Below are positions 37,234 through 40,352 of a DNA stretch of 64,000 nt, piece after piece. The translations under genes and the position numbers were made by a program. This DNA comes from Escherichia coli (GTDB lineage: Bacteria; Pseudomonadota; Gammaproteobacteria; Enterobacterales; Enterobacteriaceae): the NCBI RefSeq assembly GCF_003334355.1, contig NZ_QOWP01000003.1; one strand, written 5' to 3'. Under the pieces are notes generated by a model. That model saw nothing but the letters and a program-made list of their open reading frames with translations, did no database searches and was not told the origin of the DNA. Position 1 is the first letter of the stretch, and every line of letters starts with the position of its first letter.

Positions 37234-39212
<1,979 letters not shown>

Positions 39213-39214
<2 letters not shown>

Positions 39215-40352
39215 GTCAGAGCCCCTCGATCTCAATCAGTTAGCGCAAAAAATTAAACAGTGGGGGCTGGAACTGGGCTTTCAGCAGGTAGGTATTACCG
39301 ATACCGATCTCAGCGAGTCCGAGCCCAAACTGCAAGCATGGCTGGACAAACAATACCACGGCGAAATGGACTGGATGGCACGTCACGGTATGCTGCGCGC
39401 TCGCCCTCATGAGTTATTGCCCGGTACGCTGCGCGTGATCAGCGTGCGGATGAATTACCTTCCTGCTAACGCCGCATTTGCCAGCACGCTGAAAAACCCC
39501 AAACTCGGCTATGTTAGCCGTTATGCGCTGGGCCGTGACTATCACAAACTTCTGCGCAACCGACTCAAAAAGCTGGGCGAGATGATTCAGCAACATTGTG
39601 TTTCGCTGAATTTTAGACCGTTTGTCGATTCTGCGCCTATTCTCGAGCGCCCGTTAGCTGAAAAAGCTGGGCTCGGCTGGACAGGTAAGCACTCACTTAT
39701 CCTCAATCGCGAGGCCGGTTCGTTCTTCTTTTTAGGCGAATTGCTGGTCGATATTCCGCTGCCCGTGGATCAACCAGTCGAGGAAGGATGCGGCAAATGC
39801 GTGGCCTGTATGACGATTTGCCCGACCGGTGCCATCGTCGAGCCATATACCGTCGATGCTCGCCGCTGTATCTCTTATCTCACCATCGAACTTGAAGGGG
39901 CGATCCCGGAAGAGTTGCGACCGTTAATGGGAAACCGTATTTACGGTTGCGATGACTGCCAGCTTATCTGCCCGTGGAATCGCTATTCACAACTCACCAC
40001 AGAAGAGGATTTCAGCCCGCGTAAGCCGCTACACGCACCGGAACTCATTGAGTTATTCGCCTGGAGCGAAGAGAAGTTTTTAAAAGTCACGGAAGGATCG
40101 GCGATTCGTCGTATTGGTCACCTGCGTTGGCTGCGTAATATCGCCGTAGCATTAGGCAATGCCCCTTGGGATGAAACGATTTTGACAGCGCTGGAAAGTC
40201 GTAAAGGTGAGCACCCACTTCTCGATGAGCACATAGCGTGGGCGATTGCGCAGCAAATAGAGAGACGAAATGCGTGCATAGTCGAAGTGCAATTGCCGAA
40301 AAAACAGCGTCTGGTTCGGGTGATTGAAAAAGGGTTACCGCGTGACGCCTGA
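39213..40352 (+). CDS. queG: Epoxyqueuosine reductase QueG (4Fe-4S, cobalamin-dependent)
   Basis: 379 aa from ATG 39213 ([12 protein letters not shown]…); ferredoxin-type Cys clusters (CGKCVACMTICP, CDDCQLICP). Confidence 0.92.

What the first reader, a model, noticed from the sequence alone, without database searches (positions are those of the whole stretch)
39212..39215. Divergent nnr and queG start codons overlap on a shared CATG
With both proteins trimmed to their expected lengths (Nnr 515 aa, QueG 379 aa), the nnr ATG (minus, 39212-39214) and the queG ATG (plus, 39213-39215) share two nucleotides. Both initiation regions and promoters therefore lie inside the other gene's coding sequence, an unusually tight divergent arrangement.
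Basis: inference. Interest (0 to 1): 0.3.

Follow-up and report, generated by a model that had tools for sequence, protein, structure and literature searches.

The report
Shared-CATG head-to-head nnr/queG start codons
Two back-to-back E. coli genes (nnr and queG) really do begin on one shared CATG, and each carries the other's expression signals inside its first codons; this is real and conserved, but it is already in the reference annotation and in published transcript maps.

Summary
The window is E. coli and is identical to K-12 over 38900-39800. CATG at 39212-39215 holds the nnr ATG (minus strand, 515 aa) and the queG ATG (plus strand, 379 aa). K-12 RefSeq and PGAP annotate the same 2-nt overlap.

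- **Conservation:** 27 of 29 other Enterobacterales species keep the shared CATG. In at least 14 of them it is the only canonical nnr start.
- **Embedded signals:** The lowest synonymous variation in each whole gene lies at the junction.
  - nnr codons 12-14 (AGT ATA CCA) read TGgTATACT on the other strand, an extended -10 promoter for queG.
  - queG codons 4-5 (CCC CTC) read GAGGGG, the nnr Shine-Dalgarno.
- **Published maps:** They place the queG 5' end at about 39189. The nnr operon promoter is at about 39602, inside queG, with -10 TAAAAT using the rare AGA codon. The two mRNAs are complementary over about 413 nt and give RNase III-cut dsRNA in vivo.
- **Not verified:** I found no N-terminal or ribosome-profiling data. 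A second nnr ATG five codons downstream cannot be excluded as a minor start in E. coli.

This is a rare arrangement but already known. Interest is low to moderate.

The parts
39212..39215 (.). Shared CATG: nnr ATG = 39214->39212 (minus strand), queG ATG = 39213-39215 (plus strand). Only A39213 and T39214 are shared.
   Evidence: Annotated identically in K-12 and by PGAP. The C at 39212 is invariant in 29 of 29 aligned Enterobacterales.
37667..39214 (-). nnr CDS (515 aa), bifunctional NAD(P)HX epimerase/dehydratase. Residues 1-16 are a tail ahead of the YjeF_N domain.
   Evidence: NCBIfam PRK10565 equivalog 1026 bits, residues 1-509. TIGR00197 starts at residue 17.
39213..40352 (+). queG CDS (379 aa), epoxyqueuosine reductase. 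Residues 1-13 are a tail ahead of the family core.
   Evidence: NCBIfam TIGR00276 equivalog 510 bits. The profile starts at residue 14.
39173..39181 (+). Extended -10 promoter element of queG (TGgTATACT), the reverse complement of nnr codons Ser12 AGT, Ile13 ATA and Pro14 CCA.
   Evidence: AGT 29/29, ATA 18/18 (otherwise Leu TTA) and CCA 28/28 across 30 Enterobacterales. This sits in the lowest synonymous-entropy window of all nnr. TGnTAnnnT lies upstream of queG in 60 of 76 gammaproteobacterial loci against 7.7 expected, including 12 of 24 loci without an adjacent nnr. The published queG 5' end lies 7-8 nt downstream.
39188..39189 (+). queG transcription start (predicted 39188 from the -10; published overlap end 4392114 in U00096.2 = w39189).
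   Evidence: Supplement of PMC7373196 quoting Conway et al.. Coordinate map checked against read sequences and K-12 identity.
39189..39212 (+). queG 5' leader, about 24 nt, U-rich, with no Shine-Dalgarno. It is the reverse complement of nnr codons 1-9.
   Evidence: SD duplex -2.2 kcal/mol, equal to the random mean. The 5' end is unusually unstructured, z = +1.93.
39222..39227 (-). nnr Shine-Dalgarno GAGGGG, 7 nt before ATG1, the reverse complement of queG codons Pro4 CCC and Leu5 CTC.
   Evidence: Duplex -7.2 kcal/mol, in the top 3% of random 22-mers. Leu5 CTC 28/28, Pro4 only CCC or CCT, Asp6 GAT 29/29. This is the lowest synonymous-entropy window of all queG.
39197..39199 (-). Second in-frame nnr ATG (Met6), the alternative start candidate.
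   Evidence: Weak SD, -3.2 kcal/mol. Not conserved: GTG, TTG, ATT, CTG, GAG or AAG in other species.
39610..39615 (-). -10 hexamer TAAAAT of the nnr operon promoter, inside queG codons Asn133-Phe134-Arg135 (AAT TTT AGA).
   Evidence: GGTCTAAAATTCAGCG is invariant in 18 of 18 Enterobacteriaceae and uses the rare Arg codon AGA. The published promoter position lies 7-8 nt downstream.
39602..39602 (-). nnr operon transcription start (Conway promoter 4391701 in U00096.2), 388 nt upstream of nnr ATG1.
   Evidence: The yjeF-yjeE-amiB-mutL operon is preferentially transcribed by E-sigma70 in vitro (PMC3141248).
39189..39602 (.). Region of about 413 bp transcribed on both strands. The nnr 5' UTR is antisense to queG's leader and first 130 or so codons.
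   Evidence: Conway overlap 4391701-4392114. Lybecker dsRNA MS-212 4391717-4392100. p19-captured RNase III dsRNA cluster S-361 4391754-4392109, with small dsRNA reads straddling the CATG.
39203..39256 (+). Out-of-frame AUG in the queG leader opening a 17-codon ORF across the queG start. Function unknown, possibly incidental.
   Evidence: The AUG is the reverse complement of nnr His4 CAT, which is 27/27 and never CAC. ORF end. Not tested further.

Best explanation
nnr and queG are a genuine, anciently linked head-to-head gene pair. In Enterobacterales their start codons have converged onto one palindromic CATG.

**Expression of each gene**
- queG is transcribed from an extended -10 sigma70-type promoter (TGgTATACT, w39173-39181) written in nnr codons 12-14.
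  - Transcription starts at about w39188/9.
  - The leader is about 24 nt, U-rich, unstructured and without an SD. Its first in-frame start is ATG 39213.
- nnr is the first gene of the nnr-tsaE-amiB-mutL-miaA-hfq... operon.
  - It is transcribed from a promoter 388 nt upstream, inside queG (-10 TAAAAT at w39615-39610, start at about w39602).
  - It is translated from ATG1 (w39214) using the SD GAGGGG, which is the reverse complement of queG codons 4-5.

**Where the signals sit.** They lie in the short N-terminal tails of both proteins (Nnr residues 1-16, QueG residues 1-13). These tails are outside the conserved domains, so the DNA can serve two purposes.

**Consequence.** The promoters face each other about 413 bp apart, so the two mRNAs are complementary at their 5' ends. 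They form dsRNA that RNase III cuts in vivo.

**Shown:** sequence, conservation, synonymous-site constraint, and published transcript ends and dsRNA.

**Inferred:**
- the motifs function as promoter and SD;
- both ATGs are the in vivo starts;
- the antisense overlap or promoter interference has regulatory consequences (the weakest step, perhaps 30%).
For: **Annotation and identity**
- The overlap is annotated in curated K-12 and by PGAP.
- The window is identical to K-12 across the region.
- Protein identities pass the curated cut-offs.

**nnr starts at ATG1**
- SD duplex is -7.2 kcal/mol for ATG1 and -3.2 for ATG2.
- ATG1 is kept in 30 of 31 sequences in frame with the domain.
- At least 14 species have no ATG, GTG or TTG between ATG1 and the S(I/L)PH motif.
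- Five species have a stop two codons upstream of ATG1.
- One 12-nt indel in the tail is in frame.

**queG starts at ATG 39213**
- The only other in-frame starts (GTG 39105 and 39168) lie upstream of the mapped 5' end.
- In several species these are cut off by in-frame stops 2-8 codons upstream.

**Dual use of the DNA**
- Both genes have a mean normalised synonymous entropy of about 0.73.
- The lowest windows are nnr codons 2-14 (0.073) and queG codons 4-8 (0.183).
- Six-fold degenerate Ser12 AGT and Leu5 CTC are invariant.
- The extended -10 persists upstream of queG in lineages where nnr is absent or displaced, namely Photorhabdus, Xenorhabdus, Pectobacterium and Brenneria.

**nnr promoter**
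- TAAAAT with the rare AGA codon is invariant in 18 of 18 Enterobacteriaceae.

**Transcripts**
- Conway overlap 4391701-4392114.
- Lybecker dsRNA 4391717-4392100.
- p19 cluster 4391754-4392109, with reads spanning the CATG.
- The operon is preferred by E-sigma70 in vitro.

**RNA structure**
- Both initiation regions are unusually unstructured.
Against: - I found no direct evidence for either N-terminus. Supplements of the tetracycline, retapamulin and N-terminomics papers either lacked these genes or were not held.
- E. coli, E. albertii and Citrobacter carry ATG2 at codon 6.
- One metagenome-assembled genome (L019) has a +1 frameshift between ATG1 and ATG2, so there nnr must use the downstream start.
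- In Vibrionaceae-type relatives the Nnr tail is only about 3 residues before SLPH. The long tail is therefore lineage-specific and probably dispensable.
- Reduced synonymous variation at 5' ends is a general phenomenon, so part of the signal could be unrelated to the partner gene.
- The strict promoter scan found no full -35/-10 promoter on either strand. Both proposed promoters lack a good -35.
- The transcript ends come from RNA-seq-based operon calls quoted second-hand, not from 5'-triphosphate-specific mapping that I could read.
- Retention of CCTCTCGAT in Photorhabdus and Xenorhabdus without nnr shows that this conservation is not solely due to the nnr SD.
Confidence: 0.8

Rival explanations
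1. In E. coli nnr is really translated from the second ATG (Met6, w39199-39197). The true genes would then not overlap: 13 nt would separate the start codons, and the 515-aa model would be a 5-codon over-extension.
For: - ATG2 exists in E. coli, E. albertii, Citrobacter and some others.
- The Nnr domain only begins at residue 17.
- Relatives outside Enterobacterales have much shorter tails.
- MAG L019 has a frameshift that forces use of the downstream start.
- Divergent overlaps are often start-codon misannotations (PMC2478687).
Against: - ATG2 has only an average SD (-3.2 against -7.2 kcal/mol for ATG1).
- ATG2 is replaced by non-start codons (ATT, CTG, GAG, AAG) in at least 14 species, where ATG1 is the only canonical start.
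- The ATG1 SD is conserved through synonymous constraint on queG codons 4-6.
- The tail keeps its reading frame.
- The misannotation rule in PMC2478687 concerns overlaps longer than 60 bp, not 2 bp.
Confidence: 0.1
2. Both nnr ATGs are used in E. coli, giving two N-terminal proteoforms (515 and 510 aa). The shared CATG would be one of two functional starts.
For: - The two in-frame ATGs are 15 nt apart in an unstructured region.
Against: - There are no data for this gene.
- ATG2 is not conserved, so any second proteoform would be lineage-specific and probably without a separate function.
Confidence: 0.08
3. The overlap is real but functionally neutral. It would be a by-product of genome compaction, in which nnr's start slid upstream to the first available ATG, which happens to be the palindromic partner of queG's ATG. 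The antisense overlap and dsRNA would be tolerated noise, not regulation.
For: - Spacing between the two starts varies freely among Gammaproteobacteria, from -2 to about +146 nt, while the queG -10 stays put.
- 5'-overlapping divergent transcripts are common in E. coli: 13 of the top 20 coding dsRNA clusters are of this type (PMC7373196).
- nnr can be lost or displaced without loss of queG and its promoter.
Against: - The CATG arrangement is stable across at least five Enterobacterales families and recurs in Tolumonas. A 1-nt CAATG version occurs in three Alteromonadales.
- The locus ranks among the 20 most abundant coding dsRNA clusters in stationary phase.
- Neither point proves regulation.
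Confidence: 0.5
4. queG starts at another codon (upstream GTG 39168 or 39105), making a much longer overlap with nnr.
For: The frame is open back to 39105 in E. coli.
Against: - Both GTGs lie upstream of the mapped 5' end at about 39189.
- They have no SD.
- In other species they are not conserved and are cut off by in-frame stops 2-8 codons upstream of the ATG.
- The QueG family profile starts at residue 14 of the 379-aa form.
Confidence: 0.02

Closest known systems
Short divergent (head-to-head) gene overlaps in prokaryotes
   Same: Two genes on opposite strands overlap at their 5' ends by a few nucleotides. The overlap arises by adoption of an upstream start codon. It is rare: 1% of well-characterised overlaps (457 of 42,055; PMC2478687), and 2 of 663 overlapping pairs in E. 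coli (PMC4161906).
   Different: Most reported divergent overlaps, especially long ones, are start-codon misannotations. This one is 2 nt, is conserved across families, and is supported by SD strength and by the absence of alternative starts.
5'-overlapping divergent transcripts that form RNase III-cleaved dsRNA in E. coli (Lybecker et al. dsRNA transcriptome; Conway et al. operon maps; Huang et al. p19 capture)
   Same: This locus is itself in those lists: MS-212, Conway overlap no. 494, and p19 cluster S-361, ranked 18th among coding clusters in stationary phase.
   Different: In many listed pairs the overlap is confined to UTRs in an intergenic region. Here there is no intergenic DNA at all, so the whole overlap is coding on at least one strand and includes both start codons.
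Extended -10 (TGn) sigma70 promoters
   Same: TG one base upstream of a 5/6 -10 hexamer (TATACT), no recognisable -35, and a transcript 5' end 7-8 nt downstream. The consensus TGnTATAAT is from my own knowledge.
   Different: The element is written entirely within the codons of another gene, and promoter activity was not tested here.
Excludon / face-to-face promoter interference systems (Listeria excludons; coliphage 186 pR-pL). From my own knowledge, not checked in the library.
   Same: Opposing promoters whose transcripts overlap, so that each can in principle antagonise the other by collision, occlusion or antisense pairing.
   Different: No evidence here of reciprocal expression or of opposed functions. 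The overlap is about 0.4 kb, not several kb. Resemblance only.

Membership tests
Nnr (bifunctional NAD(P)HX epimerase/dehydratase, NCBIfam PRK10565) | Full-length match above the curated cut-off, with YjeF_N and YjeF_C domains | tested here: met
   1026 bits against a cut-off of 703, residues 1-509 of 515. TIGR00197 covers residues 17-220 and TIGR00196 covers 231-499.
QueG (epoxyqueuosine reductase, TIGR00276) | Full-length equivalog match above the curated cut-off | tested here: met
   510.5 bits against a cut-off of 200, residues 14-348.
Genuine divergent overlapping gene pair | Both annotated start codons are the best-supported starts by sequence and comparative criteria | tested here: met
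   SD strength. Absence of alternative starts in many species and flanking stops. Conservation of the CATG in 27 of 29 species.
Genuine divergent overlapping gene pair | Start codons verified experimentally (N-terminus or initiation footprint) | tested here: inconclusive
   The searched supplements had no entry for nnr or queG, or were not held.
Extended -10 sigma70 promoter | TGn immediately upstream of a -10 hexamer with A at position 2 and T at position 6 | tested here: met
   TGgTATACT at 39173-39181. Conserved as TGgTA(T/A)ACT in Enterobacterales. TGnTAnnnT in 60 of 76 loci against 7.7 expected.
Extended -10 sigma70 promoter | Transcript 5' end at the expected distance (about 7 nt) downstream | tested here: met
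   Published overlap end 4392114 (U00096.2) = w39189, against 39188 expected. The value is second-hand and RNA-seq-based.
Extended -10 sigma70 promoter | Promoter activity lost on mutation of TG or the -10 | not testable with these tools
   Needs reporter fusions or in vitro transcription.
5'-overlapping divergent transcripts forming RNase III dsRNA | Each gene's TSS lies upstream of the other's TSS, so the transcripts are complementary | tested here: met
   nnr promoter at w39602 and queG 5' end at w39189, a 413-bp overlap.
5'-overlapping divergent transcripts forming RNase III dsRNA | dsRNA detected in vivo | tested here: met
   Literature only. Lybecker MS-212 and p19 cluster S-361, with paired 21-22-nt reads on both strands including across the CATG.
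Excludon-type reciprocal antisense regulation | Expression of one transcript lowers expression of the divergent gene | not tested
   No expression data examined. Would need promoter knock-outs or rnc mutants.

The most novel reading that the evidence does not exclude
The zero-intergenic, shared-start architecture may be a selected regulatory device. The face-to-face promoters and the 413-nt antisense overlap, which covers the nnr SD and start and the queG start, would make queG and the nnr-tsaE-...-miaA-hfq operon mutually antagonistic. That would tie queuosine-34 tRNA modification to an operon that also carries t6A-37 (tsaE) and i6A-37 (miaA) tRNA modification genes, through transcriptional interference and RNase III. 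A smaller variant: the conserved out-of-frame AUG at w39203 opens a regulatory uORF over the SD-less queG start.
Probability: 0.2. Interest if true: 0.5.

Novelty: already known. Interest (0 to 1): 0.28.

Why it matters
- **Clean textbook case.** It is one of only about two divergent gene overlaps in E. coli, and it shows DNA serving two purposes. A promoter -10 and a Shine-Dalgarno sequence are written in the synonymous positions and rare codons (ATA, AGA, CCC, CTC) of the partner gene.
- **Practical relevance to recoding and knock-outs.**
  - Synonymous recoding, codon 'optimisation' or deletion of the 5' end of either gene will disturb the other.
  - Removing the first 40 or so nt of nnr removes the queG promoter.
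  - Removing the queG 5' region removes the nnr SD, the nnr promoter and the 5' UTR of an operon leading into tsaE, mutL, miaA and hfq.
- **Limit.** It does not open a long-standing question.

Tried and rejected
**Promoter and RNA scans**
- A strict -35/-10 promoter and terminator scan of 38700-39700 and 37600-38300 found nothing. The proposed promoters are -10-only types that this scan cannot see.
- An Rfam search of 38900-39900 at E<=1 found no known RNA family.

**Single-nucleotide TSS tables**
- The Thomason 2015 paper is not held.
- The Ettwiller 2016 and Kim 2012 supplements had no hits for the coordinates or gene names, possibly because the files are truncated.
- The Conway 2014 supplements are not held.
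- I therefore relied on Conway and Lybecker values as quoted in the Huang 2020 supplement.

**Translation-start evidence**
- Nakahigashi 2016 supplements had no entry.
- The TRAINSPOTTER 2026 supplement had no nnr or queG entry, and the file is cut when stored.
- The Meydan 2019 preprint has no supplements held.
- A full-text search for queG or nnr with start-codon or ribosome-profiling terms found nothing relevant.

**Ideas considered and rejected**
- A sigma-S nnr promoter, suggested by C at -13. Rejected because the operon is preferentially transcribed by E-sigma70 in vitro.
- TCGACA at w39628-39623 as the -35 of the nnr promoter. Rejected because it lies only 7 nt from the -10.
- That the conserved ATGGTCCGTC just upstream of the queG ATG is a queG leader element. 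It diverges in species where nnr no longer overlaps (Photorhabdus, Xenorhabdus, Pectobacterium, Brenneria). It is therefore more likely constrained by nnr, either its N-terminal MTDH or its initiation region.
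Full report
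**Observation**

The window is Escherichia coli. A 1-kb query across the site matches all 5426 complete E. coli genomes. The window is base-for-base identical to K-12 MG1655 over 38900-39800.

The sequence reads c39212 a39213 t39214 g39215.
- The minus-strand ORF from ATG 39214-39212 runs to 37667 and gives a 515-aa protein ([15 protein letters not shown]...).
- The plus-strand ORF from ATG 39213 runs to 40352 and gives a 379-aa protein (MSEPLDLNQ...).

NCBIfam identifies them above the curated cut-offs as Nnr (PRK10565, 1026 bits) and QueG (TIGR00276, 510 bits). The same 2-nt overlap is annotated in curated K-12 RefSeq (queG complement 4392928..4394067; nnr 4394066..4395613) and by PGAP in other strains. 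CATG as a tetranucleotide is unremarkable, with 190 copies in the window. The question is whether both ATGs are true starts.

**Are the starts real?**

For nnr there are three in-frame candidates.
- A TTG seven codons upstream of ATG1 has no SD (+1.3 kcal/mol).
- ATG1 is preceded by GAGGGG at a 7-nt spacing. The duplex with the 16S 3' end is -7.2 kcal/mol, in the top 3% of random 22-mers from the window.
- ATG2 (Met6) scores -3.2 kcal/mol, close to the random mean of -2.3.

I fetched the locus from 80 species through a QueG search.
- In 27 of 29 Enterobacterales in the junction alignment, the Nnr alignment starts exactly on the shared CATG. These span Escherichia, Citrobacter, Enterobacter, Kluyvera, Cedecea, Pantoea, Mixta, Serratia, Yersinia, Rahnella, Budvicia, Acerihabitans and Edwardsiella.
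- ATG2 is not conserved. The codon there is GTG or TTG in some species and ATT, CTG, GAG or AAG in others.
- At least 14 species have no ATG, GTG or TTG between ATG1 and the conserved S(I/L)PH motif.
- Five species have a stop two codons upstream of ATG1.
- The tail keeps its length, apart from one in-frame 12-nt insertion.
- The exception is a metagenome-assembled genome (L019) with a +1 insertion that forces use of the downstream start.

For queG the case is simpler.
- The only other in-frame starts are two upstream GTGs (39105, 39168). They have no SD and are not conserved.
- In several species they are cut off by stops 2-8 codons upstream.
- They also lie upstream of the mapped mRNA 5' end (see below).
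- No start exists downstream until after residue 50.

**Signals written in the partner's codons**

I built codon alignments of both genes for 30 Enterobacterales. I then measured synonymous codon entropy at positions where the amino acid is conserved. Both genes average about 0.73 of the maximum. Only 1% (queG) and 2.1% (nnr) of degenerate conserved codons show no synonymous variation. In each gene the lowest 5-codon window of the entire gene lies at the junction.

| Gene | Lowest window | Normalised entropy | Codon usage |
|---|---|---|---|
| nnr | codons 2-14 | 0.073 | Thr2 ACG 23/24, Asp3 GAC 24/25, His4 CAT 27/27, Ser12 AGT 29/29, Ile13 ATA 18/18 (otherwise Leu TTA), Pro14 CCA 28/28 |
| queG | codons 4-8 | 0.183 | Pro4 only CCC or CCT, Leu5 CTC 28/28, Asp6 GAT 29/29, Asn8 AAT 21/21 |

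- Read on the plus strand, nnr AGT-ATA-CCA is TGgTATACT, an extended -10 promoter pointing at queG.
- Read on the minus strand, queG CCC-CTC is GAGGGG, the nnr SD.
- These codons are rare or non-preferred, which is what an overriding nucleotide-level constraint would produce.
- NCBIfam shows the YjeF_N domain starting at Nnr residue 17 and the QueG core at residue 14. The signals therefore sit in N-terminal tails outside the conserved folds.

The extended -10 is not merely a shadow of the Nnr S(I/L)PH motif.
- TGnTAnnnT occurs within 85 nt upstream of queG in 60 of 76 gammaproteobacterial loci, against 7.7 expected from shuffles.
- This includes 12 of 24 loci with no adjacent nnr.
- It persists in Photorhabdus, where nnr has been deleted and tsaE sits about 170 nt upstream of queG, and in Pectobacterium, where another ORF is inserted.

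**Transcript maps from the literature**

Huang et al. 2020 (PMC7373196) list yjeS/yjeF as p19-captured dsRNA cluster S-361, with a 5' overlap. It ranks among the top 20 coding clusters in stationary phase. Their supplement gives the following in U00096.2 coordinates.

| Source | Coordinates (U00096.2) | Note |
|---|---|---|
| p19 cluster S-361 | 4391754-4392109 | |
| Lybecker dsRNA MS-212 | 4391717-4392100 | |
| Conway overlapping transcripts | 4391701-4392114 | 413 nt; operon promoter 'P 4391701', terminator 4408049, plus strand |

I mapped these with window = 4431303 - coordinate. I checked the map against the quoted read CAUGACGGACCAUACAAUGAAG and against K-12 identity.
- The queG 5' end falls at about w39189. 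This is 7-8 nt downstream of TATACT, where 39188 is expected.
- The nnr operon start falls at about w39602, 388 nt upstream of nnr ATG1 and inside queG.
- Just upstream of 39602 on the minus strand is TAAAAT (39615-39610), the reverse complement of queG Asn133-Phe134-Arg135 (AAT TTT AGA).
- AGA is a rare Arg codon, yet it is used in 18 of 30 species. The string GGTCTAAAATTCAGCG is invariant in all 18 Enterobacteriaceae and degenerates in other families.
- Maciag et al. 2011 (PMC3141248) found yjeF-yjeE-amiB-mutL preferentially transcribed by E-sigma70 in vitro.
- Small dsRNA reads on both strands straddle the CATG, so both transcripts cross it.

**How it most likely works**

- queG has an extended -10 promoter inside nnr codons 12-14. 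It produces a leader of about 24 nt that is U-rich and lacks an SD (-2.2 kcal/mol).
- The first 63 nt of the queG mRNA are unusually unstructured. The MFE is -3.0 against -7.1 +/- 2.1 kcal/mol for shuffles, z = +1.93. This is a plausible basis for SD-independent initiation.
- nnr has a long 5' UTR that is antisense to queG's leader and first 130 or so codons. It uses a strong SD and an initiation region that is also unstructured (z = +1.64).
- The two promoters face each other about 413 bp apart. Promoter interference and antisense pairing are therefore physically possible, and dsRNA cleavage by RNase III is documented. Whether this regulates either gene is not known.

**Wider phylogeny**

The divergent nnr-queG pairing with the queG -10 in the nnr 5' codons is widespread in Gammaproteobacteria, but the spacing of the starts varies.

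| Lineage | Spacing of starts |
|---|---|
| Enterobacterales, Tolumonas | -2 (CATG) |
| Bowmanella, Lacimicrobium, Neptunicella | -1 (CAATG; TTG and ATG share one base) |
| Pseudoalteromonas | +3 to +12 |
| Thalassotalea, Aliidiomarina, Grimontia | +17 to +22 |
| Salinivibrio | +53 |
| Brenneria | +146 |

In short-tail relatives the nnr ATG sits about where the queG transcript starts. The Enterobacterales state looks like an upstream slide of the nnr start across the queG leader until it met the queG ATG.

**Comparison with what is known**

- Divergent overlaps are the rarest class: 1% of well-characterised overlaps in 338 genomes. All those longer than 60 bp were misannotations (PMC2478687).
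- In E. coli only 2 of 663 overlapping adjacent pairs are divergent (PMC4161906).
- 5'-overlapping divergent transcripts are common in E. coli dsRNA catalogues, and this locus is already in them.
- The closest mechanistic analogies are excludons and face-to-face promoter interference. These come from my own knowledge and are resemblances, not memberships.

**Verdict**

The feature is real, conserved and rare, but it is already annotated and its transcript overlap is already published. The added value here is the comparative demonstration that the partner's promoter -10 and SD are encoded in synonymous positions of the N-terminal tails. Direct verification of the two N-termini is still missing. 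Interest is low to moderate.

Noticed in passing
window 38105-38143 and 38027-38035 (minus strand; nnr codons 358-370 and 394-396): These are the second and third lowest synonymous-variation windows in nnr across 30 Enterobacterales (for example Asn358 AAC 30/30, Leu360 CTG 29/30, Ala361 GCA 28/29, Asn369 AAT 28/28, Leu395 TTA 28/28). They may mark an internal promoter or other element feeding tsaE/amiB. Conway et al. report 8 promoters in this operon. The strict promoter scan found nothing.
   Followed up: partly
window 39203-39256 (plus strand): An out-of-frame AUG 10 nt upstream of the queG AUG opens a 17-codon ORF ([17 protein letters not shown]) across the queG start. The AUG is the reverse complement of nnr His4 CAT, which is 27/27 and never CAC. 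The stop position is not conserved in Yersinia. It could be a uORF, or simply a consequence of constraint on nnr.
   Followed up: partly
window 39182-39188 (plus strand): The stretch between the queG -10 and its start is G+C-rich (tACGGGG; GCGGGG in most Enterobacteriaceae). This resembles the GC-rich discriminators of stringently controlled promoters. Speculative.
   Followed up: no
window 37667-37695: nnr and the downstream tsaE overlap by 29 nt on the same strand (tsaE 37234..37695, nnr ends at 37667). This is an unusually long co-directional overlap and is annotated the same way in K-12 and by PGAP.
   Followed up: no
window about 40335-40388 (minus strand): An annotated 17-aa ORF (yjeV in K-12) overlaps the 3' end of queG convergently by 18 nt.
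   Followed up: no
L019 2470-2502 (MAG, 'Proteobacteria bacterium CTSoil_132'): A +1 nt insertion between the shared CATG and the ATG2-equivalent puts ATG1 out of frame, with a stop after 21 codons. Either nnr starts at the downstream ATG in this organism or this is an assembly error.
   Followed up: partly
L033 1865-2544 (Photorhabdus cinerea); L031 1441-2322 (Pectobacterium zantedeschiae): - In Photorhabdus nnr is missing and tsaE lies about 170 nt upstream of queG. The queG extended -10, the CATG and CCTCTCGAC are retained as a remnant.
- In Pectobacterium a 293-aa ORF is inserted between nnr and queG.
   Followed up: partly
L050, L060, L072 at about 2476-2482 (Bowmanella, Lacimicrobium, Neptunicella): The only in-frame nnr start candidate is a TTG whose last base (read on the plus strand as CAA) overlaps the queG ATG by one nucleotide (CAATG). 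This is a second form of head-to-head start overlap.
   Followed up: partly
whole window: The CATG count was 190 against 328 +/- 18 in dinucleotide-preserving shuffles. It may be real depletion, or a counting difference for a palindromic pattern searched on both strands.
   Followed up: no
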